From Folioceros fuciformis (Eukaryota): DNA of 56,985 nucleotides. The notes beneath the pieces are model-generated. The model saw only the letters and a program-made list of their open reading frames with translations. It had not been told where the DNA came from and searched no databases. The position numbers and the translations under genes are program-made. The DNA lies in contig JBNGIO010006178.1 of assembly GCA_049999805.1 (NCBI GenBank), forward strand, positions 274,131 to 331,115, written 5' to 3'. Below, piece by piece: positions 3,623 to 52,322 of this stretch; positions within the stretch are counted from its first letter, which is position 1, and every line of letters starts with the position of its first letter.

Positions 3623-6600
3623 TCACAGGTAAAGAGAGCCAGCAAATACAATGTCACGCTTGATACTTGTACTAGCCTCCTCAAACTTGGCTTCCAAGTC
3701 CGTCTCCCCGATAGCCCTCGCAGCAACGATAACCTGCTGCAAGACTTCTTCCAATCGCTTCAAGGCACGAATTAGACTGCCTTCAAAAATAGAATCAGTC
3801 ATCCTCATGATCTCTAAGAACTTCGCTCCCTTGCTCCAGGAATGGACAATCTCCATGATATCTGGCCTGAAAGATGCAACGTATTCCGTCACATCGATTT
3901 CCATTTTACTCTCATGCTGAACTTTCCCAACCCGTTTAGCAGTATCTGTGACATGAGAATACAGGCCTTGAAGACTTTCAGGAAGTTTCGTGAATCCTTT
4001 GGTCTTCTCTTGCCAAACAAAGCATGACAAAATTGCAGCAACTTGTTCCACTGTGGCTTCTGTGAACGCTCCGCTGAACATCAGCTCAGTGAGAACTAGT
4101 TCATCTGCACTGCTTATCTCACAAGCCACCCTGCCTTTCAATTCAACCACATCATCTGCTGTTATATATCCTAGGCGCCTGAGTACCCTCTTGCGGGCTT
4201 TCAACTCCTCCTTGAACACAAGAGTCGATGCAGTTCGAGCGTCCTTGCGGGAAACCTTGATGGTTTGCAGTAGAGTTTCCTTCCTGTGAAACATCTTCAA
4301 TCGCGGTAAAAGAGTAGGCGAGTCTGCTATAGCATGCCTTGAAAGCAGCCCCTCTATGGCTTCAGCTTGCCTGACTGCTTTCTTGTACTCACTACTCTTC
4401 ACGTGCATGTCTTCCTCTGGATCCAGAAGCTGCACGCCGTCAGGGAACTGGCTGAGCACATTTCGGAGCGTCTTCAGTGCTCGCTGTCGAGCTTCAATGG
4501 AGATCAAGTCCTTGGGAAGGACAACACGTATGACACTTAAACTGTCCAATTGAGAGAGAGGAACAGCAGCCACCATGGGCTCACCACGCTCATCCAGCCG
4601 AACGACCTGCACCGTTTTCTTCCGGCCATCTGCACTTGCAACACAGTTGCTCAAAACGTCCACGATGTAACCTTGAGGTTGTTTCCGAGTCTCATCAGTG
4701 CCATTACCAAGGTCTTTTGGTCCAGGAGCTTTCTCAAAATTGACAACAACACCCCAGACAGCTGGTGCATCCATCGAGAATGGAGCATCAGTCGCTGCAG
4801 TATCCAGATGTTTCTCCAACATGCGGACAAGTCTCCCCGGCTGCAGGAATGGCAAGCAGTTACTAGGAGAGAAGACTGTAGCTCGAATAGTGCTTCTGAG
4901 TTCCCTGAGCTGCTGTATTAGAGAGTAATAGTCCTGAACCTGCTCCTCCTCCTCAATCACAATTGAATCCCTTTCCTCTTCCAGCTTCTTTACCTCAACC
5001 AGAAGCTTAGGAAGAGCACGATCAGACTGAAACTGGTGGAAGGACTGCAGAAGCAGAGTTTCCGGATTGCTTTCTTCACAGCGCATCTGGTTCAACAGCA
5101 TGCTATAACTTAGATGGAAGGCACTGTTGAGGGGATCTGCAAGCCCCTTAATCATGGACTTGCAGGCAGATGGCTCAAGTTTTTCATCCAACATAAGAAC
5201 GCAAACGCCCCTAACATCAATGCCCCGGCGCCCAGCACGTCCACTCATCTGAATGTACTCTCCACTTGTTAACCACCGAAACCTGTCCCCATCATACTTC
5301 CTGACATTTGTAAAAACCACTGTCTTAGCTGGCATATTGAGGCCAATACTAAAAGTTTCAGTGGCAAACAGGCAACGAATGAGGCCCTCTTGAAACAGAA
5401 TCTCGATTACTTCTTTCAGTACAGGAAGGAGCCCAGAATGGTGAACACCAATCCCACGTCTAAGCAGGGGAAGAATCAAGGCAACCTGAGGAAGCTTCTT
5501 GTCATCGTCGGACAGCGAATCCAAAGCATTCCAAAACACACCATCCACAAACTTTTTCTCGTCGTCACTCGTCAGGTCAAGTCGCACCATCTCGTTTGCC
5601 AGTCGTTCGCAGTCCCTCTTACTGAAACTGAACACAATCACAGGATCATACTGGCGCAACATGATCATTTGCACCAACTTAAAGATGTCACTGGACCCCT
5701 CGCCAACTCCTTTACCCCGCCTATGCTTCCTATCTCTAGCAGCCGCAACAGTCGGTGCGACCGAGTTCACCGCCTTCTGGAAATTGTCTTCCTTAAACTT
5801 TCCCTTTTCATCGACCACAAGGTGCAGCCCATCCCCTCCTGCAGGGAAGATGAAATGCTGCAGGGGGGTGGGCCGAAAGTCAGTGTACACAATGTGGCAA
5901 GGTTGCTGATGCACCTTGGCCACCCAATCCGCAAACTCCTTGGCGTTCGGAACGGTGGCTGACAGAAACACAAACCGAGCATTCCGGGGCGCCATGACAA
6001 TGCTCTCCTCCCACACCACCCCGCGCTCCCTATCCCGCATGTAGTGCACCTCATCAAAAATAATCCATGCCACCTCTCTCATGACCTCCGACCCCCGGTA
6101 CTGCATGCTCCGAAGAATCTCGGTGGTCATGACCAGGCACGAGGCATTGGGAGCTATAGTCACGTCCCCTGTCATAAGACCCACGTCCGAGAATTCCTCA
6201 TGCAGCTCCCTGTACTTCTGGTTGCTCAAGGCCTTGATCGGTGAAGTGTAGATCACCTTCTGGCCATCCCTAAACGCCATGGCGATCGCATACTCTGCCA
6301 CCACCGTCTTGCCCGCAGAAGTGTGCGCTGACACCAGGACAGACTCCCCTGCTTCCAAACACCGTATGGCCTCCGTCTGGAAAGGATCCAACGTGAAAGG
6401 ATACTCCTTTGCGGGCTTGGAGGGGGCTTCCCTCTTCTCCCGCCCTTCATACCCCTCCGGATACGATACATCGTGCAAGCAGATGAGCGAGTCTGTGACA
6501 TTGTCAACGATAGCCTCTCCCCCAGCAAGCCCAAGAGGGACGGGTGCAACTTCGGTGCTCACGCCATCCTCTGCGACATGCTTCACCTCGCTATCCCCCG

Positions 6601-6664
6601 CCACACGCTTTACATCGCGATACTCCACGCTCTCAGCTTCGTGCTTGCGCTTGCGAGCCGCCAT
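3623..6664 (-). CDS. MTR4: DExH-box Ski2-like RNA helicase MTR4 (exosome cofactor), intronless, 1013 aa
   Basis: Single ORF with motif I AHTSAGKT, motif II DEVH, SAT, motif VI QMSGRAGRRG, arch/KOW region and C-terminal IKRDIVFAGSLYL. N-terminal CLHDVSYP and RSMQYRGSE fit the plant MTR4 clade better than HEN2. Confidence 0.93.
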   Translation of the reverse strand: MAARKRKHEAESVEYRDVKRVAGDSEVKHVAEDGVSTEVAPVPLGLAGGEAIVDNVTDSLICLHDVSYPEGYEGREKREAPSKPAKEYPFTLDPFQTEAIRCLEAGESVLVSAHTSAGKTVVAEYAIAMAFRDGQKVIYTSPIKALSNQKYRELHEEFSDVGLMTGDVTIAPNASCLVMTTEILRSMQYRGSEVMREVAWIIFDEVHYMRDRERGVVWEESIVMAPRNARFVFLSATVPNAKEFADWVAKVHQQPCHIVYTDFRPTPLQHFIFPAGGDGLHLVVDEKGKFKEDNFQKAVNSVAPTVAAARDRKHRRGKGVGEGSSDIFKLVQMIMLRQYDPVIVFSFSKRDCERLANEMVRLDLTSDDEKKFVDGVFWNALDSLSDDDKKLPQVALILPLLRRGIGVHHSGLLPVLKEVIEILFQEGLIRCLFATETFSIGLNMPAKTVVFTNVRKYDGDRFRWLTSGEYIQMSGRAGRRGIDVRGVCVLMLDEKLEPSACKSMIKGLADPLNSAFHLSYSMLLNQMRCEESNPETLLLQSFHQFQSDRALPKLLVEVKKLEEERDSIVIEEEEQVQDYYSLIQQLRELRSTIRATVFSPSNCLPFLQPGRLVRMLEKHLDTAATDAPFSMDAPAVWGVVVNFEKAPGPKDLGNGTDETRKQPQGYIVDVLSNCVASADGRKKTVQVVRLDERGEPMVAAVPLSQLDSLSVIRVVLPKDLISIEARQRALKTLRNVLSQFPDGVQLLDPEEDMHVKSSEYKKAVRQAEAIEGLLSRHAIADSPTLLPRLKMFHRKETLLQTIKVSRKDARTASTLVFKEELKARKRVLRRLGYITADDVVELKGRVACEISSADELVLTELMFSGAFTEATVEQVAAILSCFVWQEKTKGFTKLPESLQGLYSHVTDTAKRVGKVQHESKMEIDVTEYVASFRPDIMEIVHSWSKGAKFLEIMRMTDSIFEGSLIRALKRLEEVLQQVIVAARAIGETDLEAKFEEASTSIKRDIVFAGSLYL

Positions 6665-7472
6665 GCTTGCCGGACCTGTTGCATTCAGACAGGATGACCC
6701 AGTTTTCCTAAGTTAGGGCTCATCTATGGCAGACATAATACATTACCCAAAATGTGAAGCCTTTTTATAGTGGGAGAAAGGAGCTTTCTATTTTTGTTTT
6801 GAGTGGGCACTCTAAATCGTAATCCTGTTTTGGACTACAAGTGTATGTATTGGCACTATACCAAAACGAACTGGTTTCATATTATCTAAATGCGACCTCC
6901 TTAACTATTATATCTTTATAAATGTTACGATTTTAATACTTTCAATTTGGGGATTAAGGTTAAATATTATCTTTCTATAAATATTATATATTACCTATTC
7001 TAGAAAAAATAGATACTCCCAATCATTGTAATCTAATTTCATAAATATTATTTTAATTATTTTTAAGTTAATTATTATACTAATATTAATTATTTATATT
7101 ATCATATTAATTATTTATAATATTTACTTGAATTTATTTTAATTTATAATTATTTATTTATATCATGTATATTAAATATTTTATTCTTAAGAAAAAGACT
7201 TAAGACTAAATTCTCTACCCGATGTCCTACTCCTAGGTAACATTTAGGGAGGGTCCAATGTACACATATAGTCTACTCAAGTGGTTCCACTTACGTAGTA
7301 ATCTCAAAATTATTTAATATTTTTTTAATATGGCAAAAGTGTGTGAAATCCTACTCTTAGTTATGGGCTTACTAGTCATTCAATCCTCTAGAGAGAAGAT
7401 AGAGTCCATGAACACAATGATGATTCTATGCAATTATCATACTTACACTTATGAGTCACGCTACAACATGAA

Positions 7473-10900: not shown

Positions 10901-11105
10901 AAGTTGAAAATAAAATAACACGCATGCTTCCTCGGGCCAGATTCTGGTTTGGACAGCGCAAAATGATAGAGAGAGGACAAAGAGCATCCCTAACGAACGA
11001 AGACTACGCTAACGCATAGAACTCCTGATAGTTGGTTGCGGAGCTGAAACGGATGTCTTGAAGTGGCATCTATCCTCACTTCCGCTGGGGCTGACACGCG
11101 ACACA

Positions 11106-14100
11106 ATGGAGTGTGCCCAACGTTGCTCGGAACAGCCGGCAGAGGTGACCAGCGGGTCTGAGCTTCTTCCCGTCAGCATTCAGGAGGGCAGTGCAGCTGA
11201 TCGTGAAACTTTGATTGTCAAGGCCCGGAATGACACTAGACAGTACCGCAGAGTGGTGCTGCCGAATGAGCTGGAGGCGCTGCTGGTCAGTGATCCAGAG
11301 ACAGACAAGGCAGCAGCTTCGGTAAGTGTGAATGTTGGGTCCTTCAGCGATCCCGTAGGGCTGGAGGGCCTGGCTCACTTTTTGGAACACATGCTGTTCT
11401 TTTCTAGCGAAAAGTATCCTGTGGAGGACAGTTACTCAAAGTTCCTGGCAGAGCATGGCGGCCACTCCAATGCTTTTACCGGTGGAGAGTACACCAATTT
11501 CCACTTCGACGTCAATGCTGATCACTGGGAAGAAGCGCTTGACAGGTTCGCTCAATTTTTCATTGGTCCCTTGTTCTCTCCTGATGCAGTGTCGAGGGAG
11601 ATCAATGCTGTAGACTCAGAGAACAGCAAGAACCTAGTGTCAGATCCGTGGCGCATCAATCAGTTATGGAAGTCGGTGAGCTGCGAGGACCACCCTTATC
11701 ACAAGTTTGGGACAGGGAATCTAGAAACTCTGGATGTCTTGCCTAAGAAACGAGGAGTGGATACTCGCCAGGAGCTGGTGAAGTTCTATCATGCTAATTA
11801 TTCCTCGAACCTTATGCGATTGGTTGTGTACGGGAAACAGAGTTTGGATGAATTGCAGCAGCTTGTGACTCAAAAATTCAGCTACATCAAAAACTCCGGC
11901 ATAAAGCCTCTCTCGTTCTCAGGTCAACCTTGCCTTCCAGAGCACCTTCAAATCATCGTCAAATCTGTTCCCGTGAAAGTTGGGCATTGTTTAGAGTTGA
12001 TCTGGCCTATTCCTCCTCAGATCGAGAAGTATAAGTCAGGGCCTTGTCGTTATCTGGGTCATCTGATAGGGCATGAAGGTGAAGGTTCTTTATTTGCTCT
12101 CCTAAAGAATCTTGGCTGGGCCAATAGTCTCAGTGCCGGTGAAGTGGAGAGAACTGCGTTCTTCTCTTTTGTTGTCATCCAGATTGAATTAACAGATGTG
12201 GGGCAAGAGCACATGGCAGAAATTGCTGCATTTGCTTTTCAGTACCTGGCCATTTTGAGAAAGGAAGGTGTATCAGAATGGCAATTCGAGGAGGTACGAG
12301 CTGTGTGGGATGCCAAGTTTCACTTTCAGGACAAGAGGCCCCCTGTATCATATGTTACGGGCCTTGCTGCTAACATGCACCTGTACCCTCCACAAGACTG
12401 GCTTGCTGGACCATACTTGCTTCAAGAATTCGATGCTGCGAGTATCAAGGAGGTGTTCGACCAACTAACTGTTGAAAATGTTCGTATATTCTGGCATTCT
12501 CAATTGTTTGAAGGGAAAACTACGAGCGTAGAGCCGTGGTATGGAACTACGTTTTCAATTGAGAGGATTGACAAGGAGCTATTGCAACGGTGGGCAAGTC
12601 AAGAATCTGATCCTAGACTTCACTTACCATCTCCCAACTTATTTATACCAAGTAACTTTGACCTGATAGATGCCAGCTCAACGTCAAAGTATCCGTCTCT
12701 GGTAAGGCGGACATCTATGTCAAGGCTGTGGTACAAGCCAGATCCCATCTTCCGGACCCCCAAGGCCCACATACAGCTGGACTTCACCTGCCCCGAGGCC
12801 TACTGCTCTCCTGAGAGTAGCATACTGACACGTATCTTCACAGATTTGCTTGTGGATTATTTGAATGAGTTTGCTTACTATGCAGAGGTGGCAGGTCTTA
12901 GCTACGACATTCACAATACAGTGACTGGCTTTAGGATTTATGTATCCGGATATAATCACAAGTTGACTATTCTGGCAGAGAAGATTTTGGAAAAAGTAGT
13001 GAATTTTGAAGTGCAGGAGGATCGCTTCAACATAGTGAAGGAAAAGGTCATGCGAGACCTGCTGAACTTCAAGTACCAACAGCCATATCAACAGGTTCTA
13101 TATTACAGTAATTTGCTTCTAGAGCACAAACGTTGGGATGTCCACGAGTATATTGACGTTCTGCCGTCACTCCAAGCCAAGGATTTGGAGTCTGTGTACA
13201 CACGCATCCTTTCTCGAGTATTTTTAGAATGCTATGTTGCTGGGAACTTGTCCGGACATGATGCTGAGAACCTGATAGAGAAGTTCGAGATGGTGCTGCA
13301 AGAAGGATCAAAGGTGAAGGTACGCGCACTCTATTCCTCTCAGCACCTGGAGCGTAGGATTGTGAAGCTGGATGCAGGTGGTAACTTCTGTTACTCAGCA
13401 GCTGGTCTCAATCCACAGGATGAGAACTCAGCCCTGTTGCTTTATTTTCAAGCGAGTCAAGATGATCCCCGGATTAATGTACTCCTAGACTTATTCCATT
13501 TGATAGCCAAGAGGGAAGTATTTCACCAGCTGCGATCGGTGGAGCAGCTTGGTTATGTTGTTGCTCTGATTCCCCGCAATGACTATGGGATACGAGGAAT
13601 CCAGTTCATCATACAGTCCACTGTGAAGGACCCACAGGGGCTCGATGAACGGGTGGAGGTATTCCTCCAGTCCATGGAAAGTACCTTGCAGAACATAACC
13701 GACGACGAGTTTCAAAAGCATGTAGATGCCTTGACAGATATCAAGCTAGAGAAACACAAAAACTTGTGGGAAGAAACCAACTTTTTCCTCAAGGAAATCG
13801 AACATGGCACTCTTCTTTTCAATAGGGCAGAGATTGAAGTAGCTGCCCTTCAGAAGGTGAACCAAAAGGAGTTGTTCAGCTTTTTCTTGGCGAACCTTCA
13901 TCGATCTGGCCCCAAGCGGAGCAAGTTGAGTGTCCAAGTCTTTGGGTCTCTTCATACTGCTCAACTACGTGACATGTTGAGCAGTGGGATGCAGCAGGAG
14001 CCAAAGGGAGCAGAACCCAACCCGCTTAGAATCTCTAATCCACACAATTTTAAGAGGTCTCAGTCATTGTATGGTTCTTTTACTGGTGGCAACCATGATA

Positions 14101-14117
14101 CGTATGTCGCAACCTAA
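11106..14117 (+). CDS. IDE: Insulin-degrading enzyme-like zinc metallopeptidase (M16A/pitrilysin family), intronless
   Basis: Single ORF; first in-frame ATG at 11106 (the ORF track starts at TTG 11058). Inverzincin motif HFLEH, GGHSNAFT, HPYHKFGTGN, HLIGHEGEGSL and FHQLRSVEQLGY. Confidence 0.93.
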   Translation: MECAQRCSEQPAEVTSGSELLPVSIQEGSAADRETLIVKARNDTRQYRRVVLPNELEALLVSDPETDKAAASVSVNVGSFSDPVGLEGLAHFLEHMLFFSSEKYPVEDSYSKFLAEHGGHSNAFTGGEYTNFHFDVNADHWEEALDRFAQFFIGPLFSPDAVSREINAVDSENSKNLVSDPWRINQLWKSVSCEDHPYHKFGTGNLETLDVLPKKRGVDTRQELVKFYHANYSSNLMRLVVYGKQSLDELQQLVTQKFSYIKNSGIKPLSFSGQPCLPEHLQIIVKSVPVKVGHCLELIWPIPPQIEKYKSGPCRYLGHLIGHEGEGSLFALLKNLGWANSLSAGEVERTAFFSFVVIQIELTDVGQEHMAEIAAFAFQYLAILRKEGVSEWQFEEVRAVWDAKFHFQDKRPPVSYVTGLAANMHLYPPQDWLAGPYLLQEFDAASIKEVFDQLTVENVRIFWHSQLFEGKTTSVEPWYGTTFSIERIDKELLQRWASQESDPRLHLPSPNLFIPSNFDLIDASSTSKYPSLVRRTSMSRLWYKPDPIFRTPKAHIQLDFTCPEAYCSPESSILTRIFTDLLVDYLNEFAYYAEVAGLSYDIHNTVTGFRIYVSGYNHKLTILAEKILEKVVNFEVQEDRFNIVKEKVMRDLLNFKYQQPYQQVLYYSNLLLEHKRWDVHEYIDVLPSLQAKDLESVYTRILSRVFLECYVAGNLSGHDAENLIEKFEMVLQEGSKVKVRALYSSQHLERRIVKLDAGGNFCYSAAGLNPQDENSALLLYFQASQDDPRINVLLDLFHLIAKREVFHQLRSVEQLGYVVALIPRNDYGIRGIQFIIQSTVKDPQGLDERVEVFLQSMESTLQNITDDEFQKHVDALTDIKLEKHKNLWEETNFFLKEIEHGTLLFNRAEIEVAALQKVNQKELFSFFLANLHRSGPKRSKLSVQVFGSLHTAQLRDMLSSGMQQEPKGAEPNPLRISNPHNFKRSQSLYGSFTGGNHDTYVAT

Positions 14118-18625: not shown

Positions 18626-19998
18626 CTACAAGACAAAGTGTGGGTTAGCCCGAGCTGCCATGACCGCAACTTGTTGTGACACCTGCGCTTGCTTCACCTT
18701 GACACAAATGGCTCGGTGGAAGAATTGCTCACGAGACAGGCTCCGGACATGCTTCAGGTACTGGTCTACGGGGATGGCACCCTCCTGCGCAGCCCTGTCT
18801 AGGGAGTAGAAAATGTCTTCCACGGCAAAGTCGGCAGCAGTGCACTCAAGCAGCTGCTTGGACAGCGCGTCAGCAGGCTCGAACACATGGTCTATGTCTA
18901 TGGCCTCCGACCCCTTGTCGTTATGCTTCAGCCACGACTCCAGCACATCCGTGTTGGTGAGCAGCACCTGGAGTTGGGCCTCCAACCCCTCCTTCTCCTG
19001 CTGCAGCTCCCGCACCCCCTTTTCGATCTCCTCCGCCCTGCGGTTCAGCACGGACTCCGTGTTGAACAAATTCTCCATCTCCCGCTCTCTCTCCTTGATG
19101 AGCTCCTCCGCGTCCCGCTGCAGCCTGGCCGTGAGCGCGGTCACCGCGTTCCTCTTGAAAACCTCCCCGGGGTCCGACGGGGGAGCCGCCTGTTGCTGTT
19201 GCTGCTGCTGCTGCTGGAGGGAGGAGGTGTAGGGAGGGTAGGGTCTGATCTGAGAGNNNNNNNNNNNNNNNNNNNNNNNNNNNNNNNNNNNNNNNNNNNN
19301 NNNNNNNNNNNNNNNNNNNNNNNNNNNNNNNNNNNNNNNNNNNNNNNNNNNNNNNNAGAGGGACCACCGAGGTGGCTCAGGGACGGGTGGGAGGGAGGAG
19401 GGGCAGGAGGTAGGGAAGAATTTACATAAGGCCCGCCCCCGAGGCTGGGATGCATGCCATGATAGGGGGACGGGGCAGGGGGAGGAGGGCGGGAAGGGGC
19501 ACCCGGGGGCCGCGAGTAAAGCGGCGGATCCTGGCCAAAGACAAGAGACAAATTCTGCACTAGCTCCACCAAGTTGGAGCGCGGGTACAGCCACTGGTTC
19601 AGATACGGCACCGACACCATCCCGGACGCATCCACGCAGGGATGGCGCGGCTTGATGATCATATCCCTTGTCGGAGACACATACACCAAGGGCGGGTTCC
19701 TGGGATACGCTTCAAGAAGCCACATGGTGATCGGAATGTTGTACTTGACATCCTGGTAGTACATGGGAATGGTGCCGTCCGCTTGCAGCAGATTCACGGA
19801 GCGGCCATCATTATGCGTGAACATGGCCGTCTTCACCTGCAACCCCGGGAATTCCTGGATCACCTGCACAAGATGCTGCCGAATTGTCAACTTCACCTCC
19901 TCCTCGTAGGGCAACGACTGCGGCCCTCTCTGCGACAACACCGAATTGAGAAACTGCATGAAGGCATGCGCCGACTGAGTCGGTGACGCCGACGGCAT
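18626..19998 (-). CDS. VPS23: ESCRT-I subunit VPS23/TSG101 (ELC-like): UEV domain, Pro-rich linker, coiled coil, steadiness box
   Basis: ATG at 19998 (MPSASPTQ...). UEV region [20 protein letters not shown]...YNIP; C-terminal [15 protein letters not shown]...[17 protein letters not shown]. The frame changes across the N-gap. Confidence 0.92.
19257..19356. other. Assembly gap (100 N) inside the VPS23 Pro-rich linker
   Basis: Run of exactly 100 n, typical of a placeholder of unknown length. Confidence 0.98.
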
Positions 19999-21178
19999 GG
20001 TGACAGCAGCACCAACTCCTCCTCCTCCTCCACCACCAGCACCAGCACCAGAAACCTCAACCCTGCCTCCCCCGGCCTCCCAACCCGCTCGCCTCCCGAG
20101 TAGCCCGCTCAAGCCCTCCGGGCTCCTTGTCCAGGCCTGCATGCCGCCCTGTTCTGCTCCATCTCTAAGAGCTCCGCCAGCTCCCCATCCTGCCCTAGAG
20201 CTGCTGCCACTACTGCGTGCTCCGCATCCGAGCTGCCCGTGCTTGCAGGCCAACAGTGGCTCTCCAATGGCACCCGCGCCGGCACCAGCTCGATGCAAAT
20301 TCGCACCTTGCCCACTGCGAATTGCACACCGTCGCCACGCCTCGCCACGCCTTGCCCGGCCGTGACCCGGCAGATCCAGCCTCTGGTCCAAGCAGCTTAC
20401 GTGCCCTCAGGGGAAAGACCCGCAAAAGCCAGGGCAGCGCAACGCGTTTCCCTCTTGCCTCTCGCACCCTGCCTCGAACCCTCCTGCTACACAACCTTAC
20501 GGACCAAGTCTGTACGTGCAGTGGGCCCATTTTCTTTATGTCTAACAACGCATGTAATTATATTTATATATATTTAATAAAAATATATTTATGGCTAATA
20601 TTTATGTACGTTCCTTCTCAGGCATCAAATTATGGGACTCATTCTCCGGCTCCCTTGGTGTCTTTTTCTTCCTCGGTTTTGGGTAATATATATATATATT
20701 TTTATCTCTTATTCTTAAATAGGGTTCCACATACCTTTAGAGATTATGCTAACTACTGCGATCCTATAACAAGAATATGTCTTGGATATTTGGTACTTGG
20801 TAGTGCTCTCCTACCGATGATTGCCCAAACTTAAGGATTATTATGCACCGGGGCAGCAAAATTATGTTAATATAGTAACACGAGATTTGTAAACATTGAG
20901 AATATTTGATTTGTGTTGTCTTTACGTGCAAGTTTTTTTTGTTAAGTTGCACATTACCCAGCCATGTTATTCGCATAAGTATGATCTCATTTAAGCATCA
21001 TTAATATGTTGAACTACATTGTACTGTTATTTAATCACATCCCTCCTCATGCAATGTTAGTCCTTGTACACTGATGTGTTCTTCTTCAAGTTGTTAACAT
21101 TAGTTGTTCACTATTGACATATTTGTACTTAGTGTTCTTGTTCATGTTGTTTTCTTCTTGTTCCCACACTTCATAGTA

Positions 21179-23163
21179 ATGGCAAGTATCAAATGGCAGA
21201 TCTTCTTCTCCATGTTTATGGTAAGTAACTTCTGCTGGTACATTTTTAGGTGTAATTTTTTGATAAATATGCTTTCTTCGTTAATGATAAGGAACTTGGA
21301 TACTCACCCACTTTTGGTGACATGATATGGTGTGTTCACTTTCAGATAGTTTGCGTGATTCCAACTCATGGACGAACAATTCAAGGTCTGGGCATGCCAC
21401 GGGATGTTCATCTTGATGCATCTCTTGTTGAAGGCAAGAATGTAGATGTCTTGAAGTATTGGGATGATACCTTTATTACTACATATGCACCCGAAAGTTG
21501 GTTTCAAATCATATCCCCATTGTCACCTTTTGATGTAGAACGGTTCACAAGAATGATTCAATCTAAAGACTTAATATCAAACAAAAATATTGCATTTGAG
21601 TTATGCTCGTCAGCAAGGTTATTGTGCATTGATAAAAGCTTTTTTAAATATACTCCTATGACAGTAAAAGAAGATGGAAAAGCACAGCAAAAGTATGAAG
21701 ATAATGTTAGTATGAAGAGTACTGAGCAGAACCGAGGTCGAGCATCTTATGTGGATGAAACTTCTCGAGACAATGATAGCATGGAGATTAATGAGCAAAA
21801 AAGGGCACGGTCAGGTTATGTGGATATAATCTCTGATGACAATGATAGTATAGAAATTAATGAGCAAAAACGAGGTCGAACAGCTTATGCGGATGAAATG
21901 TCACGAGACACCAATAGCATGGAGATTAACGAGCAAAAAAGGGCGCGGTCAGTTTATGTGGATGTAATCTCCAATGACAATGATGGCATGAAAATTAATG
22001 AGCAAGCACGAGGTCGAGCAAGTTATGACGATGGAGACCCTACTAGGTTTTTTAACTCTAATGATTTCATATCTCGAGACGGTAATAGCATGGAAATTAA
22101 TGAGCAAAAACGGAGTCGATCAAGTTATCACGACAAAGCTACTAGGTTTTTTAACTCTAACGTTTTCATGTTCAAGAATGATGATGCTAATGAGCAAAAA
22201 GGAGGTTGGGCAGCTAACAAAGGTCGTGAGCGGGAAAGGACTATTATCTACAAGGATTCGAGACTAAAAGAGTATCAAACAGAAGGACATCAAACATTTA
22301 TTGATGACAATGATGAATCCAAGGTCCATGATCAAAACCACAGTCCATTAGTTGACAACCAAATGCTCAAAGTTAATGAACAGACAGGATCTCACACACC
22401 TCATGGGCATGCAAGTTTTGAATATCATGTGACAGAAAATGATAGATTATCATGGTTTTATGAAACAGATCTTGTGGACCCAATTGTTGCTTCAAAGAGA
22501 ATTGCAGCACCCAAATCAATATTCTCAGCAAAGATGGCACACCTGCTCTCAAATCCCTTTCTACCGCGAGTGATGGCTGATTCATTTGGAAACGTCATGA
22601 GGTTGAATATATCTAAAATCATGGAACAACTACATGTTTCCGATGATTCATCAATGGCTAAGAACATGCAAGTGATTCCGTCTTTATGCAACCCAAATGC
22701 AAAACTACATCTCGGAGAAGTTAGAACGTGCATAACATCTTTGGAAGCAATGGCAGAATTTATTGTTTCTGTGATGCCTGCAAGCAGGCGTGGATTAATG
22801 GTGTTGGGTAGTTCCTTTATAAAAGACAACAAGATTCCTTCCGATGAAAAGTACAAGGTGACTAATGTGGAACTATTAAATGATGTGACATCCAAGTATG
22901 CTATTTGTCATGGGTTGCTATTCCCATATAGAGTGGAAATGTGTCACTACATTCCGAAAACAAAGCTATTCAAAGTCACATTAGAGTCCTTTGGACGATC
23001 AGATTTTGTTGCTACTAATGTTGTTGTGTGCCATACCGATACAAGCCAATGGTCATCCACACACATTTCATTCAAAGTGTTAGGAGGGAAGCCTGGGGAA
23101 CATAGCATTTGTCATTGGTCTACTCCAGGAGAGTTCGCCTACATATCTCGTAAACATGTCTAA
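21179..23163 (+). CDS. Secreted BURP-domain protein with an N-terminal tandem-repeat region (candidate fused burpitide cyclase)
   Basis: Exon 1 21179-21220 (MASIKWQIFFSMFM), intron gtaagt...ttcag 21221-21345, exon 2 21346-23163 in frame, completing a signal peptide (IVCVIPTHG). C-terminal BURP domain has all four CH dyads: ICHGLLFPYRVEMCH...VCHTDTSQW...ICHW. Confidence 0.9.
21703..22215 (+). repeat. Coding tandem repeat, 69-bp/23-aa unit (NxSMEINEQKRxRxxYxDxxSxD), 4 regular plus 2-3 extended or degenerate copies
   Basis: Units start at 21703, 21772, 21841, 21910, 21979 and 22081. Confidence 0.92.
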
Positions 23164-30406: not shown

Positions 30407-30940
30407 ATGCTAGGACAAAGCATTGAGGGTCATCAATTCATTAGCTATAGAGCAGGATTCATCGGTCATTGCAAGACAACTTCCATTTCTAAGCATTGCA
30501 AGATGATTTCTCTTTTGAAGATGATGAAATTTTTTCTTTTTTGTCTATTTATTATCTTTATGGTATCTCTAGGCTTGGATCGATTTGTAGTGTGTGGATG
30601 TAGTGTGACTTACTTGATTGTATTCTTCTTACGTTGCAAGCCAAGAAGAGGAAAGCCACCGCTTCAAATGGAGTTATTGAAGGAAAATATTCCAAGCACT
30701 TTGTATAAGAAGATAGAAAATGTTGATGAGGATTGTTCAATATGTCTCTTTCCTTTGAACGAAGGGCAACAAGTTAGAGTGTTACCATGTTGTTCTCATT
30801 CCTTTCATAGCAAATGTATTGATGAGTGGTTCAGTACTTCATTGACATGTCCCTTGGATAGAGCGAGTATTGATCTAGCCCATAAAGTTGAGCCTGCACT
30901 TGATGGATTGGATTTAGTGGAAATTATCATAATTAATTGA
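30407..30940 (+). CDS. Small TM plus RING-H2 (ATL-like) E3 ligase, intronless, AT-rich
   Basis: Hydrophobic segment (FFLFCLFIIFMVSLG...YLIVFFL) then DCSICL..L..G..VRVLPCCSHSFHSKCIDEWF..SLTCPLDR. True start may be a downstream Met near 30500. Confidence 0.8.
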   Translation: MLGQSIEGHQFISYRAGFIGHCKTTSISKHCKMISLLKMMKFFLFCLFIIFMVSLGLDRFVVCGCSVTYLIVFFLRCKPRRGKPPLQMELLKENIPSTLYKKIENVDEDCSICLFPLNEGQQVRVLPCCSHSFHSKCIDEWFSTSLTCPLDRASIDLAHKVEPALDGLDLVEIIIIN

Positions 30941-42274: not shown

Positions 42275-44696
42275 ATGGCGAGCTTGAAGCTGACCTTTGT
42301 TTGCACTTCACGCTCGTTTGGTACAGAATTGGCGGCCAGGATCGCTTGACTTGTGTCCTGTTCCTTGCTCTTTCCGTCGGAGGTCCGATTCTGAATTTGC
42401 GCTTGCTTCGTTTGGGCGCTTGGTGTGAGCAGGTCAATCCTTGAAGTCCCGCCGTGGGGATCTTGTGCGCAAACTCTTGTTGCTGAAGGTGAGGATGCAG
42501 GAATCTGCGATGCTGTGCCACACGGTTGAGGCTGCCTGGTCTAACGCTGTTTCGGTGCAGGATGTTAAGTATTTGGAAGTCGGACTCAAGACGTCGTGGA
42601 AGGATCTTCGGGTGAGCTGCAAGTTTGTGTTCTGAGATCTGCATGTCCGCCGCGTCTAAAGCGGCGGACATTGACTGTTGAAAGTTTGGGTGGAATTGTT
42701 TTATTTTTTCCTCATGCATGGTGCATGTATGTGGAGCAGGCGCTGGTTGCGGTATCCAGGGCCGTTACCCGTGCTCAGACTCGTGGCGTGACACGTTCGA
42801 CAGTTTCAGCGCTTGGGCAAGTTTACCCTGTTGTTATCGTCAATGTTGTGAATTCGTTTGCCTGTGGGGAACCAAACTTGTTTTCGTTTGGGGTGCGTGA
42901 CTTGTGATGGTTTTGTGAACAGGGATGAAGCTGTTGGCCTGTCTAGCGGTGACAGGACCGAACACTTCGATTTTGTGGTGGTAGGGAGTGGAGTGGCGGG
43001 TCTCAGGTACTCGCTTGAAGTAGCAAAATATGGGACTGTCGCGATAGTCACCAAGTCTGAGCCTCACGAGAGCAATACCAACTATGCACAGGGTGGAGTT
43101 AGTGCGGTTCTAGATCCTGCAGACTCGGTAGAGAATCATATCAGGGATACTATGGTTGCGGGGGCATTTCTATGCGATGAGGAAACAGTGGAAGTCGTTT
43201 GCAGGGAGGGGCCGGAGCGTGTGAAAGAGTTGATGGAAATGGGAGCTTTGTTTGACCAGAGTGAAGATGGGCAGCTGCACCTTGCAAGAGAAGGTGGTCA
43301 TTCTCATCACCGGATAGTGCACTCGGCGGACATGACAGGCAGAGAGATTGAGAGGGCCCTCTTGACAGCTGTGAGATCGAATGCCAATATCAGGATGTTT
43401 GAGCATCATTTTGTCCTGGATTTGCTCACACGTCAGGATGGGGTAAATGTGACCTGTTGTGGCTTGGATGCCTTGGACACTAAGTCTCAGGAGGTGGTAA
43501 GGTTCATGGCTGGAGTTACTATGTTGGCTTCTGGAGGTGCTGGCCACATCTATCCTACTACCACGAATCCTCTGGTTGCAACCGGGGATGGTGTTGCTTT
43601 GGCTCATCGTGCACATGCTGTTGTTTCCAATATGGAGTTTGTACAATTCCATCCCACTGCCTTGGCTGACGAGGGTTTGCCCATCAAATCGTCTAGAGAA
43701 AATTCCTTTCTTATCACTGAAGCTGTGAGGGGTGCTGGAGGCATCCTCTATAACCAGGCAATGGAAAGGTTCATGCTTCTGTATGATCCCCGTGCTGAAC
43801 TTGCCCCTAGAGATGTGGTTGCCCGCAGCATTGACGACCAGTTGAAGAAGCGAGGAGAAAAGTTTGTTTACTTGGACATCAGTCATAAATCGAAGGAGGA
43901 GATCTACTCTCATTTTCCCAACATTGCTGCGGAGTGTCTGAAATGTGGCCTTGACATAACGCGGCATCCGATTCCTGTGGTGCCTGCTGCACACTACATG
44001 TGTGGCGGTGTTCAGACAGATTTATATGGGGAGACATCTATCGCAGGACTGTATGCAGCAGGCGAGGTCACATGCACTGGTCTGCACGGTGCAAATCGAC
44101 TTGCCAGCAACTCCTTGCTTGAAGCACTTGTGTTTGCTCAGAGAGCAGTGGGGCCATCGATAGCGTATGTGCAACAAAGACGGGATTCACCCAGGGACAC
44201 AGAATGTGACAGTGCAACAAATGAGTGGCGTCGCCCAGTTGTTGCAACATCCTCAGGTCACCCCACCTTTGAGGAAGTAGTCAAGTTCACTTTCGAAAAA
44301 AGAAAGGAGCTGCAGCAGATTATGTGGAGCTATGTGGGCATTGTTCGTTCCACCGAACGGCTAAAAATCGCTCAAACCAAGTTGATTGAGCTGGAGCTTG
44401 ATTGGGAGGCCTACCTTTGCCAAATGTGCTGGAACGCAAGTATGGTGTGCGTGGAGGTTTGTGAGATGAGGAACTTGATCTCTGTGTCCCATCTTGTTGT
44501 TAGTAGCGCCCTTGCCAGGCAAGAAAGTCGGGGTTTGCACTACACTGTAGACTTCCCGGACCTTGTGGAGAGTGAGCGGTTGCCAACCGTTCTGTTCCCC
44601 AGTTCTCCTGTTCTTTCAACGTGGAGTTCCCTACCGCTTCAGAGGTCGGCAGAGGTGAAGCTGTGCCATGTTCCTGTAAGCAATGACTCGCAGTAA
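42275..44696 (+). CDS. AO: L-aspartate oxidase (NadB), plastid, first step of de novo NAD synthesis
   Basis: FAD motif VVVGSGVAG, SNTNYAQGG, EGGHSHHRIVH, EFVQFHPT, AHYMCGG, GLHGANRLASNSLLE and ESRGLH. Proposed exons 42275-42320, 42433-42488, 42740-42816 and 42923-44696 are phase-consistent and give a Ser/Arg/Ala-rich transit peptide; the 5' model is less certain than the catalytic exon. Confidence 0.93.
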
Positions 44697-49687: not shown

Positions 49688-52322
49688 TCACAACATTCTC
49701 AGCTTCTCGGAGAGAACATTCAGCTCCTGCGACGTGTAAGGTTGAGTATGCAAGGAACCCTGCTCTGGACCTCCTGCAGGGTCGTAGGGCATACTACCAG
49801 CTGGTGGGGAATGATGCTGCTGGACGCTGTCGCTTTGTCTACTATTTTCGAGGAATAGCTTGCACCATTTCTGCGTCTTCCGAAGAAGAGCAACATCTTT
49901 CACTTTTGAGCGCATAGATCCATAGAAGGCCTCCAGCTGGGCAAGCTCTTGATCACTTAACGTCTCAATCGTCTGCTCCCACTCCCTCAATAGCCTCTGC
50001 GCAGATGGCTCTGCGAAAGAGGCGTCAACCAGAGACAGTTCAGGGCTACAACGGGTGTTAAGGGTCCGTTGGCTAGGAGGAATTCCACGACCAAATATCG
50101 CTTGCTCCAGCATTTTGGTATATGATCTGAGTGCCTGGGTCTCCCGCAAAGCCTCAGCATACCGAGAATCGGTAACCTGTGCTGCGCTTGTGACTTGCAT
50201 ATCGTCACTGTCTGGCGAGGGCTCAACGAGTGCAGGCTTGGTATGTAGCGCATCAGCCTCATCTGGTGCATAGAGCGGCCAAATTACCTGACAAGGAACC
50301 CAGCTATCCGCAAACAGCCCACTTCCCAGAGCTCCATGCTGGCCTCGACCCCAAGCCCACATCACCAGCCCCTTGCAGTCCAAGCACACGGTGTGGGCTG
50401 CACCACAAACAAGTTGCCTGCTCCCTCTGCTTCTGCTATGTAAATCGCTTCTGCCATTTTCAACATCAAAGGAGGGGGTCCTCTTGCGGAAAACCTGAAC
50501 AGGAGCAAGTGCATCACCTCCGCTGATGCCCATCCCAGGACACAGACCCAATCCACCCTCCATGCCCCAAGCCCAGATATCACCATCCTGAAGCTCGACG
50601 CTGGTGTGGAAGAGCCCGCAAGAGACGGCGACTACAAACTCATCTTTTGGAAGACCTCGAACAGGCTGAGGAAGCCACGAGCTCACTGACACTCCATGAC
50701 CAAGCTGACCATTCTCCCCAAGCCCGAATGTATAGCAAAGGGAAACACCAGCAATCTCATCCTCATCACGAGAAACAGCTGATGGTACAACAATCACACT
50801 GTGAAAAGCACCGCATGCAATAAGAGCAAACCCAGCTTGAACAGTTCCCAGACCTGCCACAACCTGCGGGCGGGACGTGCTAACTTGATGTCCCTGCCCA
50901 AGCTGACCGTGCTTGTTACTTCCCCATGCATAGCATGCATCGCTTGCACCTGCCGTTGGCCGTACCAGAGCCAGTATGTGCTCGTTGCCACAAGCGACCT
51001 TGGAAACCTGTGCGCCATATCCCAGCCCTCGCACCAGTTCAGGGTGCTCGAAGACTGAGCAAGACAACTGTCCTTGAGTATCTGGATCCGGCGACAGGGG
51101 ACATGAACCCCACAGCCACAGGCAACCATTCGCGTCAATAGCACATGACATCATGCCACCAGCTTCAATTGCCACGGCCTGTGTGATTACAGGCTACCTG
51201 TCAGAACCGTCACGCATACACAGACACGGAGCACGGGAGAAGGGCTTGCAAGGGCCACAGCACCTTCACAGCTCTGGTGTCACATTTTTTCTCATCAGAG
51301 GCGTGATTTTGCTCTGGATTGTCACTTGTGCTGGCCATGCCCCCTCTCCACTCCTCTACGCAGCATGGCTTTGAGGTTGGTCCCTCCCGCCCCAGCTGAC
51401 CATCTGTGCACCTGTCAAGGAAGTTGAGAATTCCCTCAAGCCAAAATGTCAGTACATCTAAGTTGCAAATGGCAGGTCTCCGGCAGAAACAACCAAGCAT
51501 GTAGCACGGAAGCCAAAAATGTCAACAGCCACTGGATACAAGCATTGTAGCCCCAAGACCAGATCGTCCCATCGTCTGCTATCAAACAGCAGCGTCATGA
51601 GCTTCAAGAAGCAACTCATGAACCCAAGTTCCATTGCTAAACAAAAACAGGGCCCCAGGCCACCTTACCAGCCAAACATAGGCTGTGGTATGCCCCGGCT
51701 GCAACTGTAACCATGCGTCCCCTGCCACCGTTTCGCTGTAGTGCGGCATGCTCATGCAGTTCACTTCCATCCCGTGCACCTCTCCCTTCAAGTATCGACT
51801 CAGGCAAGGGGAGAATGTGGACAGGCGTACACTCGTCCGTTTCATTCCCGGTGCCTACCGAACATTCCTCGACCCCAAGCATATACAGAGCCTGCAGCTG
51901 AAATCACTGTCAAGAAATATTAGATATGGCCACGACTGCAATAGAACTAACTTGAAAACCAACCCCACAATGACTGCATAATCAGGAAACAAGAAGAGCT
52001 CCCAGGAACACGTAGAAACACATCAGCTGTCATTCTTCAACAGCTGCCCAAAGCCACTGAAAAGCCTCCTAGCACTGGGGAATAGACCTCCTGCATTTCC
52101 AGCAACCGCACGTCGGATGCGGAACCCACCCAAACCCCTCTTTGAACTAGTGCACGGCAGAGACTCAGCAAACACACATCCCATCCACTTTCCAGTGGAT
52201 GCTTGAACAAGCAACCCTACTGCCAGCCGCACATACTCAAGTCTACTGTACCACGTGCCTGTGAGAGCAAGCGTATGAGCCTCTCCAGCCGCAAGCTGAA
52301 CGACGGTATTGGAGTCTGCCAT
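49688..52322 (-). CDS. RCC1-repeat protein with C-terminal helical tail; apparent frameshift in exon 2 (possible pseudogene or assembly error)
   Basis: MADSNTVVQLAAGEAHTLALT|..VYAWGRGMFG//GTGNE..., VAAGAYHSLCL, WSWGYNA|YGQLG, then a long last exon with RCC1 repeats (VACGNEH, AWGSNKHGQLG, FGLGENGQLG, WAWGRGQHGALG). Frame breaks at ~51853-51857. Confidence 0.82.

What the first reader, a model, noticed from the sequence alone, without database searches (positions are those of the whole stretch)
21179..23163. Candidate fused burpitide (plant cyclic RiPP) precursor-cyclase with an unfamiliar Arg-x-Arg-x-x-Tyr core motif
Seen: signal peptide, then tandem repeats each with a conserved EQxRxRxxY motif whose variable positions cluster just before the Tyr (RGRASY, RARSGY, RGRTAY, RARSVY, RGRASY, RSRSSY, then KGGW), isolated SFFKY/TIIY/ASFEY motifs, and an intact BURP domain with all four Cys-His dyads. 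Established: BURP-domain peptide cyclases are copper-dependent enzymes that cross-link Tyr/Trp in repeated core peptides fused to their own N-terminus (lyciumin, selanine and cyclopeptide-alkaloid types). Inference: this could be an autocatalytic precursor from a seed-free plant with basic/polar cores, unlike the mostly hydrophobic cores I know; KR and Asn/Asp flanks could be release sites.
Basis: partly seen in the sequence, partly recalled or inferred. Interest (0 to 1): 0.8.

Follow-up and report, generated by a model that had tools for sequence, protein, structure and literature searches.

The report
Repeat-bearing BURP protein, candidate peptide cyclase
This is an intact gene from a seed-free land plant for a secreted BURP-domain protein carrying six tandem Arg-x-Arg-x-x-Tyr units, built like the plant enzymes that cyclise peptides encoded in their own chain, but nothing here shows that it does so.

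Summary
[quoted passage not shown] The BURP domain scores Pfam E 6.9e-41, has CH-X10-CH-X27-CH-X25-CH, and its predicted fold matches the peanut BURP cyclase 8SY3.

The architecture matches fused burpitide precursor-cyclases such as SkrBURP, and the organism is a seed-free land plant. But the diagnostic features are family-wide: four intact CH dyads occur in 82 of 84 aligned BURP proteins, and 42 of 151 carry upstream repeats, 38 of those with an invariant Tyr or Trp.

The closest relatives (at most 38% identity in the BURP domain) lack this array. The one clade-mate with an array has lost all four His. No ortholog, RNA evidence or docking support was obtained.

The motif is unusual: it is the most basic of 38 arrays compared.

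Verdict: a new member of a known kind and a reasonable but unproven burpitide candidate (about 0.42). The main rival is a non-cyclising apoplastic BURP protein with a hydrophilic linker (about 0.36).

The parts
21179..21220 (+). Exon 1: start codon and first 14 codons (n-region and start of the hydrophobic core of a putative signal peptide)
   Evidence: Read from the sequence. GTAAGT donor at 21221. Hydropathy maximum 2.98 for the spliced N-terminus. No RNA evidence.
21221..21345 (+). Putative 125-nt intron (GTAAGT...TTTCAG)
   Evidence: Canonical splice signals, and exon 2 is in frame. A DNA-like contig of run X4 runs straight through 21300-21511. Splicing is not shown. An alternative unspliced start exists at ATG 21322.
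21346..23163 (+). Exon 2: 605 codons plus TAA (protein P0001)
   Evidence: Translation. Chance of such an open frame is about 7e-21.
21436..21630 (+). Folded N-terminal module (exon-2 residues about 31-95, helical; holds the YW and Cys-x-Cys segment shared with relatives)
   Evidence: AlphaFold2 10-residue block pLDDT 90-97 for residues 31-90. The same segment can be recognised in P0002, P0003 and P0008.
21724..21999 (+). Four canonical 23-residue units (residues 127-218), each E-Q-x-R-x-R-x-x-Y-x-D followed by an acidic spacer ending in I-N
   Evidence: Tandem Repeats Finder period 69 and 138 nt. Column table.
22000..22191 (+). Two longer units (residues 219-252 and 253-282). They keep E-Q-x-R-x-R-x-x-Y-x-D and add a T-R-F-F-N-S-N element.
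22192..22425 (+). Degenerate tail of the array: two further N-E-Q starts (residues 283 and 345), with Trp288, Tyr302, Tyr310 and the His-rich A-S-F-E-Y-H segment
22426..23145 (+). BURP domain with its conserved pre-segment (residues 361-600). The Pfam match covers residues 399-600.
   Evidence: PF03181 E 6.9e-41. pLDDT above 90 for most of 361-600. Foldseek hit to 8sy3_A: E 5.5e-11, target TM 0.56, rmsd 2.4 A over 145 columns. phmmer hit to 8sy2: E 4.7e-6.
22906..22911 (+). Cys-His dyad 1 (C521 H522)
22942..22947 (+). Cys-His dyad 2 (C533 H534)
23029..23034 (+). Cys-His dyad 3 (C562 H563)
23110..23115 (+). Cys-His dyad 4 (C589 H590)

Best explanation
Shown: the gene encodes a BURP-domain protein of a seed-free land plant, probably secreted. 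Between a folded N-module and the BURP domain lies an intrinsically disordered array of six units, each keeping E-Q-x-R-x-R-x-x-Y-x-D.

Inferred mechanism, in order:
1. The protein is a fused, self-modifying burpitide-type precursor.
2. The two copper sites formed by the four His of the CH dyads use O2 to oxidise a unit that folds back in cis into the cleft.
3. The invariant Tyr phenol is linked to a C-H of a residue three or four positions upstream. My first guess is the invariant Arg at i-3. That gives an X-x-x-Tyr ring with the spacing of arabipeptin (L2-Y5) and elaeagnin (P2-Y5). The alternative is the Gly/Ala/Ser at i-4, the spacing of the lyciumin Gly4-Trp8 bond.
4. Cleavage after the conserved Asn before E-Q, plus exopeptidase trimming, would release small cationic cyclic peptides, possibly with an N-terminal pyroglutamate.

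Every step after 'it is a BURP protein with a Tyr-bearing array' is inference.
For: - Domain and fold: Pfam BURP E 6.9e-41. The predicted fold matches the copper complex of the peanut BURP cyclase 8sy3_A at E 5.5e-11.
- Catalytic residues: all four His are present with canonical spacing. These His are required for activity in ArbB2 (PMC12186524, section 'Mutants').
- Position of the array: it sits where fused cyclases carry their cores. SkrBURP (P0034) has an acidic spacer ending in Asn followed by a core ending in Tyr (review PMC11253845). The unit here reads acidic spacer, I-N, then E-Q-K-R-x-R-x-x-Y.
- Selection on the motif: units differ at 68-87% nt identity, with more non-synonymous than synonymous codon differences (6-11 against 2-6). 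Even so, six positions including the Tyr are invariant in 6 of 6 units.
- Family-wide pattern: Tyr is the residue most often invariant in repeated 8-mers upstream of BURP domains, in 38 of 42 array-bearing proteins. That is more than Asn (33), Asp and Lys (32 each), Ala (30) or Ser (29). Tyr makes up 6.4% of the pre-BURP parts against 2.6% of the BURP domains.
- Known ring spacings: X-x-x-Tyr rings are documented for FLWGY, LPIIY and VLFYPSY. Arg occurs in known cores, QLLVWRGH and VLFYRSY.
Against: - No chemistry, transcript or metabolite was seen.
- The CH dyads are intact in 82 of 84 aligned BURP proteins, so they do not mark cyclases.
- Arrays with an invariant Tyr or Trp occur in 38 of 151 family members, including FxxY-repeat proteins with no known cyclisation (that no cyclisation is known is recalled).
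- In the query's 8-row clade the other seven rows lack this array. The only one with an array (P0010, Met/Pro-rich) has CE, CR, CY and CT in place of the four CH. Arrays in this clade therefore need not be cyclase substrates.
- All cross-link partners named in the papers read are Leu, Ile, Tyr, Pro, Gly, pyroGlu or His. None is Arg, Ala or Ser.
- The motif has no hydrophobic residue next to the Tyr. The whole array is predicted disordered (pLDDT 29-45), as a plain hydrophilic linker would be.
- The 42 array-bearing proteins are related to one another, so the Tyr enrichment is not 42 independent events.
Confidence: 0.42

Rival explanations
1. An ordinary non-cyclising BURP protein of the apoplast or cell wall. 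The array is a lineage-specific hydrophilic, disordered linker with a role in stress, dehydration or metal or wall binding. Its conserved charged residues and Tyr serve binding or solubility, and nothing is cross-linked or released.
For: - The array is predicted disordered throughout. It is highly charged, with 24 K+R and 30 D+E in 150 residues.
- The nearest relatives are about 380-residue proteins without the array.
- The moss PpBURP2 has no repeat domain, localises to the apoplast and changes stress tolerance when over-expressed (PMC9121072, passages).
- The clade-mate P0010 has an array but no His.
- CH dyads are kept in nearly all BURP proteins, whatever their function.
Against: - A plain linker would not be expected to keep six positions, among them the only aromatic residue, in six of six units while the rest diverges with non-synonymous changes outnumbering synonymous ones.
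- Family-wide, Tyr is the residue most often invariant in such arrays.
Confidence: 0.36
2. A polyprotein precursor of linear peptides. The K-R / R-x-R sites and the Asn flanks are protease sites that release about 23-residue linear peptides. The BURP domain acts as a carrier or chaperone and not as a cyclase.
For: - Dibasic K-R occurs in 4 of 6 units and R-x-R in 6 of 6, and an Asn precedes E-Q in the units.
- Multi-core precursors of linear plant peptides exist (review PMC11253845, section 2.1).
Against: - No similarity to any known peptide family was found. Only the BURP family scored against Pfam, and the feature search in the protein atlas gave no usable hit.
- No sulfation-type D-Y motif is present (that this motif marks sulfation is recalled).
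- It does not explain why the Tyr is invariant.
Confidence: 0.12
3. A silent or decaying gene copy: an intact-looking but unexpressed lineage-specific duplicate whose array is a recent neutral expansion.
For: - GC3 of 0.33 contrasts with 0.49-0.76 in most neighbouring genes.
- Non-synonymous differences between units outnumber synonymous ones.
Against: - A 605-codon frame stays open in AT-rich DNA, with a chance of about 7e-21.
- All family-invariant residues are kept.
- The AlphaFold2 model is confident for both folded parts.
- Another neighbouring gene (RING-H2, 30407-30937) has the same low GC3.
Confidence: 0.06

Closest known systems
SkrBURP (Selaginella kraussiana; fused burpitide cyclase making selanines A and B; QXY82431.1 = hit P0034)
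   Same: - A seed-free plant protein with a signal peptide.
[quoted passage not shown]
- Units consist of an acidic spacer ending in Asn followed by a short segment ending in Tyr.
- It lies in the same 53-row half of the BURP tree as the query.
   Different: - Only 33% identity over the matched BURP stretches, and in a different clade. SkrBURP pairs with a Ginkgo protein.
- Its cores are hydrophobic (VLFYPSY, ILLYPSY, FLLYPY), with Leu and Tyr as cross-link partners. Here the segment is R-x-R-x-x-Y with no hydrophobic residue.
- Cyclisation is shown for SkrBURP and not for this protein.
AhyBURP (peanut USP-type BURP peptide cyclase, PDB 8SY2 / 8SY3)
   Same: - It is the only solved fold that matches: Foldseek E 5.5e-11 and phmmer E 4.7e-6.
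- The four CH dyads align.
- The core acts in cis on its own subunit (review).
   Different: - 26% identity over 145 columns.
- It carries a single core, QPYGVYTW, with a Trp-Gly bond and a Tyr-pyroGlu bond, not an array.
- An eggplant (Solanum melongena) protein carrying the same core (P0063) sits in the other, 89-row half of my tree.
ArbB2 / ArbA2 (Coffea arabica split burpitide pathway, arabipeptin A)
   Same: - A Tyr-O to C-beta link at i-3 spacing (L2-Y5 in FLWGY).
- The four His are essential.
- The recognition sequence is upstream of the core, with a hydrophobic anchor flanked by charged residues. The unit here has M-E-I flanked by charged residues upstream of the motif.
   Different: - It is a split system, with the substrate on a separate peptide.
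- Its cores are hydrophobic.
- Nothing equivalent to Phe(-7) is shown here.
Repeat-less bryophyte BURP proteins (Marchantia polymorpha MARPO_0056s0129 = P0008; moss PpBURP2)
   Same: - P0008 is in the query's 8-row clade. It shares the N-module and the BURP domain, and its four CH dyads are intact.
- PpBURP2 is apoplastic.
   Different: They have no array. PpBURP2 is described as lacking the repeat domain, and P0008 has 372 residues. I did not place PpBURP2 in my tree, because its sequence was not among my hits by name.

Membership tests
BURP domain family (Pfam PF03181) | Match to the family profile above the curated cut-off, at the C-terminus of the protein | tested here: met
   E 6.9e-41, 140.6 bits against a cut-off of 27, profile positions 24-215 of 216.
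BURP domain family (Pfam PF03181) | Four Cys-His dyads with spacing CH-X10-CH-X25-27-CH-X25-26-CH (the canonical spacing is recalled) | tested here: met
   CH at residues 521, 533, 562 and 589, giving X10, X27 and X25. All eight columns are nearly invariant or invariant in the 84-row alignment.
BURP domain family (Pfam PF03181) | BURP fold as in 8SY2 / 8SY3 | tested here: met
   The AlphaFold2 model has pLDDT above 90 over most of residues 361-600. Foldseek: 8sy3_A E 5.5e-11, target TM 0.56; the next entry is at E 0.25. This is a prediction, not a solved structure.
BURP domain family (Pfam PF03181) | N-terminal secretion signal | tested here: inconclusive
   Both start models give a hydrophobic N-terminus. 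No signal-peptide predictor or RNA evidence was available.
Fused burpitide precursor-cyclase | Core peptides with a Tyr or Trp encoded in the same polypeptide, N-terminal to a BURP domain with four His | tested here: met
   Six units with an invariant Tyr lie upstream of an intact BURP domain. The feature is not specific: 38 of 151 family members show it.
Fused burpitide precursor-cyclase | Copper- and O2-dependent side-chain cross-link (-2 Da) on the core | not testable with these tools
   Needs expression and mass spectrometry.
Fused burpitide precursor-cyclase | A released cyclic peptide in the plant that matches a core | not testable with these tools
Lyciumin-type burpitides | Core Q-P-x-G-x-x-x-W with the Trp indole N linked to Gly4 C-alpha (review) | tested here: not met
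   The six canonical units have no Trp and no Q-P. Only the octapeptide length from Gln to the aromatic residue, and a small residue (G/A/S) at position 4, are alike.
Cyclopeptide-alkaloid-type burpitides | Tyr phenol-O linked to C-beta of a Leu, Tyr or Pro two or three residues upstream | tested here: not met
   The Tyr is present. However, i-3 is an invariant Arg and i-2 is A/S/T. No Leu, Ile, Pro or Tyr partner exists.
Angiosperm BURP subfamilies (RD22-, PG1beta-, USP-, BNM2-like) | Placement inside one of these clades in a BURP-domain tree | tested here: not met
   In the 142-row tree the query lies in an 8-row clade (SH-aLRT 87) with a Marchantia protein. It is outside the 17-row clade of long FxxY-repeat proteins (100) and outside the 89-row half that holds the eggplant lyciumin-core protein. 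Subfamily labels for these clades are my reading of their repeat types (recalled), not names returned by a call.

The most novel reading that the evidence does not exclude
A seed-free land plant outside Selaginella makes a new subclass of burpitides. These would be small cationic peptides in which the BURP copper centre links Tyr to an Arg (i-3) or a Gly/Ala/Ser (i-4) side chain or backbone carbon, a cross-link partner and charge class not seen in any described burpitide. A bolder variant is that the Tyr cross-links are installed along the disordered array and never released, so that the BURP domain staples its own tail.
Probability: 0.2. Interest if true: 0.72.

Novelty: new member of a known kind. 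Interest (0 to 1): 0.45.

Why it matters
Burpitides are a young class of plant natural products. In the review I read they are reported across vascular plants, with one lycophyte example and none in true ferns (PMC11253845). My searches found no paper linking BURP cyclases to bryophytes, hornworts or Isoetes.

If confirmed, a working fused cyclase with an Arg-rich core from an under-sampled seed-free lineage would widen both the taxonomic range and the substrate chemistry of these copper enzymes. It would also give a cationic cyclic-peptide scaffold.

If it does not cyclise, it is a useful negative case. It would show that 'array with invariant Tyr plus four CH dyads' is not enough to call a burpitide precursor.

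Tried and rejected
- Word-indexed homology search, whole protein and residues 340-605: no hit at E <= 1e-3 among proteins of 332-1059 residues. The 'longer' and 'shorter' length options were not tried. This shows only that no close relative sharing 5-residue words was found.
- Repeat homology: blastp of residues 106-400 against the pre-BURP parts of the 150 hits found only the conserved pre-BURP segment (P0007 and P0002 at E 0.002, P0005 at E 0.012). An apparent likeness of units 5-6 to the E-Q...R-F-x-N...Y-W-Y repeats of P0058 scored E 2.2 to 4.0. I dropped it as not significant.
- Protein atlas search of residues 100-400: no usable hit.
- Own genome: none is held, so paralogs, split precursors and clustering could not be examined. 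Earlier scan notes held nothing on this genome or sequence.
- Sequencing runs: no RNA holder is listed. Four of six listed runs hold the stretch or a part of it, from three studies under one coded organism label. The contigs laid were identical to the window and showed no joint across the intron. Run X3 is only guessed to be RNA and covers 22188-22436 and 22668-22818. Run X4 runs through the intron-exon border like DNA. Nothing can be said on expression or splicing.
- Complex prediction of BURP (residues 352-605) with one unit (residues 138-175): no verdict. The three runs scored 0.55, 0.56 and 0.01; the controls scored 0.48, 0.01 and 0.00.
- AlphaFold2 of the whole exon-2 product did not place any unit with confidence: pLDDT is 29-45 over residues 101-350. 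I do not read this as evidence on docking.
- MTR4 helicase as a taxon marker: the best named hits are all 78-80% identical. The 19-row tree puts the window with one unnamed sequence in its own lineage, joined to lycophytes with weak support (85/89). I could not tell a hornwort from an unsampled lycophyte, and I did not try to name the organism.
Full report
**What is there**

The window is plant nuclear DNA. At 21179 an ATG opens a 14-codon exon that ends in a GTAAGT donor at 21221. After a 125-nt AT-rich stretch ending in TTTCAG, the frame continues from 21346 for 605 codons to a TAA at 23161-23163. An in-frame ATG at 21322 would give an unspliced alternative. Both models start with a hydrophobic stretch. 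At the local composition the chance of 635 stop-free codons is about 7e-21. The gene occurs once in the window.

**Domain content**

Pfam finds only BURP (PF03181, E 6.9e-41). The four Cys-His dyads lie at exon-2 residues 521, 533, 562 and 589, with spacings X10, X27 and X25. Against all PDB sequences, only the peanut BURP cyclase 8SY2/8SY3 matches (E 4.7e-6).

An AlphaFold2 model was built on an 84-row alignment. I picked those rows from the query and its 150 hits, choosing rows from across the tree's clades. The model is confident for residues 31-95 and 361-600. It has pLDDT 29-45 for residues 101-350. Foldseek returns the four 8sy2/8sy3 chains at E 5.5e-11 to 3.3e-10 (target TM 0.56-0.59). 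The next hit is at E 0.25.

**The array**

Tandem Repeats Finder reports a 69-nt period (4.4 copies) and a 138-nt super-period (2.2 copies, 84% matches) at 21723-22027.

At protein level there are six units. Four have 23 residues; the other two have 34 and 30 residues and carry an extra T-R-F-F-N-S-N element. All six keep E1, Q2, R4, R6, Y9 and D11. Two degenerate N-E-Q starts follow at residues 283 and 345. The pattern EQ.R.R..Y.D occurs six times, against none in 2000 shuffles.

The four canonical units are 68-87% identical at DNA level. They show 6-11 non-synonymous and 2-6 synonymous codon differences per pair. The invariant positions are therefore kept against a background of free change. 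Variation is not confined to the residues before the Tyr: columns 3, 5, 7, 8 and 10 vary, as do 8 of the 12 columns after D11.

**Relatives**

Two word-indexed searches found nothing. The exhaustive HMMER search found 668 proteins at E <= 1e-3, 369 at E <= 1e-10 and 6 at E <= 1e-30. The best was P0002 (386 residues, 35% identity, E 8.4e-55).

I built a quick maximum-likelihood tree of 142 BURP domains. Of the 151 sequences, nine were dropped:
- five that did not match my CH pattern (P0004, P0012, P0024, P0048, P0120);
- one short fragment (P0009);
- three more (P0015, P0028, P0074): the pattern matched twice in P0015, and I read the other two as two-domain proteins.

In this tree the query is sister to P0002 (SH-aLRT 87). 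Both lie in an 8-row clade (87) with P0003, P0005, P0006, P0007, P0010 and the Marchantia polymorpha protein P0008. The sister group (joint support 90) holds P0011, P0088 and an Adiantum protein, P0078.

Of 30 proteins looked up by exact sequence, 9 carry an organism name. Eight of these lie in the query's 53-row half of the tree: Marchantia, Ceratodon, Selaginella kraussiana, Adiantum (three), Psilotum and Ginkgo. Seven of those eight are seed-free plants. The ninth is a Solanum melongena protein carrying the lyciumin-type core QPYGVYTW, and it lies in the other, 89-row half.

P0034 is SkrBURP itself (QXY82431.1), the characterised lycophyte cyclase. It is in the same half as the query but in a different clade.

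**The organism**

The neighbouring MTR4 helicase gene is 78-80% identical to those of Sphagnum, Diphasiastrum, Ceratodon, Adiantum, Selaginella and Marchantia. It is 87% identical to one unnamed sequence.

In a 19-row tree it forms its own lineage with that unnamed sequence (100/100). That lineage lies outside mosses, liverworts, ferns and seed plants, and is joined weakly to the lycophytes (85/89). 'Seed-free land plant' is therefore supported. The exact group is open.

**How special is the architecture?**

In the 8-row clade, six of the seven other rows have 372-398 residues and no array in that position. The seventh, P0010, has 553 residues and a Met/Pro-rich array. P0010 has replaced all four His (CE, CR, CY, CT) while keeping the Cys. 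Across the 84-row alignment the four dyads are intact in 82 rows, so they do not mark cyclases.

Among the query and its 150 hits, 42 carry at least three copies of an 8-mer (6 of 8 identical or better) upstream of the BURP domain. In 38 of these a repeated 8-mer holds an invariant Tyr or Trp. Tyr is the residue most often invariant (38 of 42). Asn follows at 33, Asp and Lys at 32 each, Ala at 30 and Ser at 29. Tyr makes up 6.4% of the pre-BURP parts against 2.6% of the BURP domains. These 42 proteins are related to one another, so these are not independent events. Even so, the pattern fits the view that such arrays exist to present Tyr.

What is unusual here is the motif. Over the five residues before the aromatic residue, net charge is +2.0, the highest of 38 arrays. 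Mean hydropathy is -1.62, third lowest of 38.

**Literature**

From the review PMC11253845 I read passages and sections 3.6.1.5 and 3.6.2.3:
- Burpitide cyclases are BURP domains whose four conserved His form two type II copper centres in a cleft overlaid in cis by the core.
- Known cores include QPYGVYTW, QPWGVGSW-type lyciumins, QILFW, QLLVWRGH, VLFYPSY and FLWGY.
- Burpitides are reported across Tracheophyta, and true ferns have none of the five RiPP classes.

From PMC12186524 I read the sections 'Modeling', 'Mutants' and 'Cyclization of Alternative Arabipeptins':
- The His residues are essential.
- A hydrophobic anchor in the recognition sequence is needed.
- The Tyr-Leu link has i-3 spacing.

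Passages of PMC10349150 add elaeagnin (LPIIY, Pro2-Tyr5) and the SkrBURP core VLFYRSY.

Passages of PMC9121072 describe the moss PpBURP2 as lacking the repeat domain, apoplastic and stress-related.

A search for burp + bryophyte + cyclase + peptide returned one paper, which is on another protein family. The ten papers listed for BURP, Anthoceros, Isoetes and hornwort do not contain BURP.

**Reading**

It is certain that this is a BURP-family protein with a lineage-specific, disordered, Tyr-bearing array.

I think it slightly more likely than not among the alternatives (0.42) that the array is a cis substrate of the copper site. The link would run from Tyr to the invariant Arg at i-3, or to the small residue at i-4. 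Cleavage at the conserved Asn would follow. All of this is inferred by analogy.

The rivals:
- The main rival (0.36) is a non-cyclising apoplastic BURP protein with a hydrophilic linker.
- A linear-peptide polyprotein (0.12) cannot be excluded.
- A silent gene copy (0.06) cannot be excluded either.

No ortholog, transcript, docking result or chemistry was obtained.

Noticed in passing
window 3626-6712 (-), 11013-14114 (+), 42852-44693 (+): Three long housekeeping genes are each complete in a single open frame without introns: an MTR4-type helicase, an M16 insulinase-type peptidase and an L-aspartate-oxidase-type flavoprotein. They sit in a gene-dense plant window, which points to a compact, intron-poor genome.
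   Followed up: partly
window 21346-23160 and 30407-30937 compared with the neighbouring genes: Third-position GC falls into two groups. The BURP gene (0.33), a RING-H2 gene (0.34) and the ORF at 1221-2735 (0.38) are low. Seven other genes range from 0.49 to 0.76.
   Followed up: no
window 19257-19356: A run of 100 N (assembly gap) lies inside the reading frame that continues the UEV / TSG101-like gene at 19357-20406 (-).
   Followed up: no
P0010 (unnamed, 553 aa; clade-mate of the query): This BURP protein has kept all four Cys but replaced all four His (CE, CR, CY, CT). It carries a Met/Pro-rich array. It is a likely copper-free derivative of the family.
   Followed up: partly
P0029 (Ceratodon purpureus KAG0580295.1) and P0058 (unnamed, JGI): Two seed-free-clade BURP proteins carry large aromatic arrays. 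P0029, from a moss, has 17-18 copies of a D-K-S-A-Y-x-Y-K unit. P0058 (organism unnamed) has 7 copies of R-F-x-N-x-Y-W-Y. I saw neither described as a burpitide precursor in the papers read.
   Followed up: no
42 array-bearing proteins among the query and its 150 hits: Tyr is the residue most often invariant in repeats upstream of BURP domains (38 of 42). It is 2.5-fold enriched there relative to the BURP domains of the same proteins.
   Followed up: yes
window 49691-51193 (-) and 55862-56260 (-): Two RCC1-repeat-like frames share an H-R-F-P-R-S-L-V-A-T-S-T-Y stretch, suggesting a nearby duplicated gene or exon.
   Followed up: no
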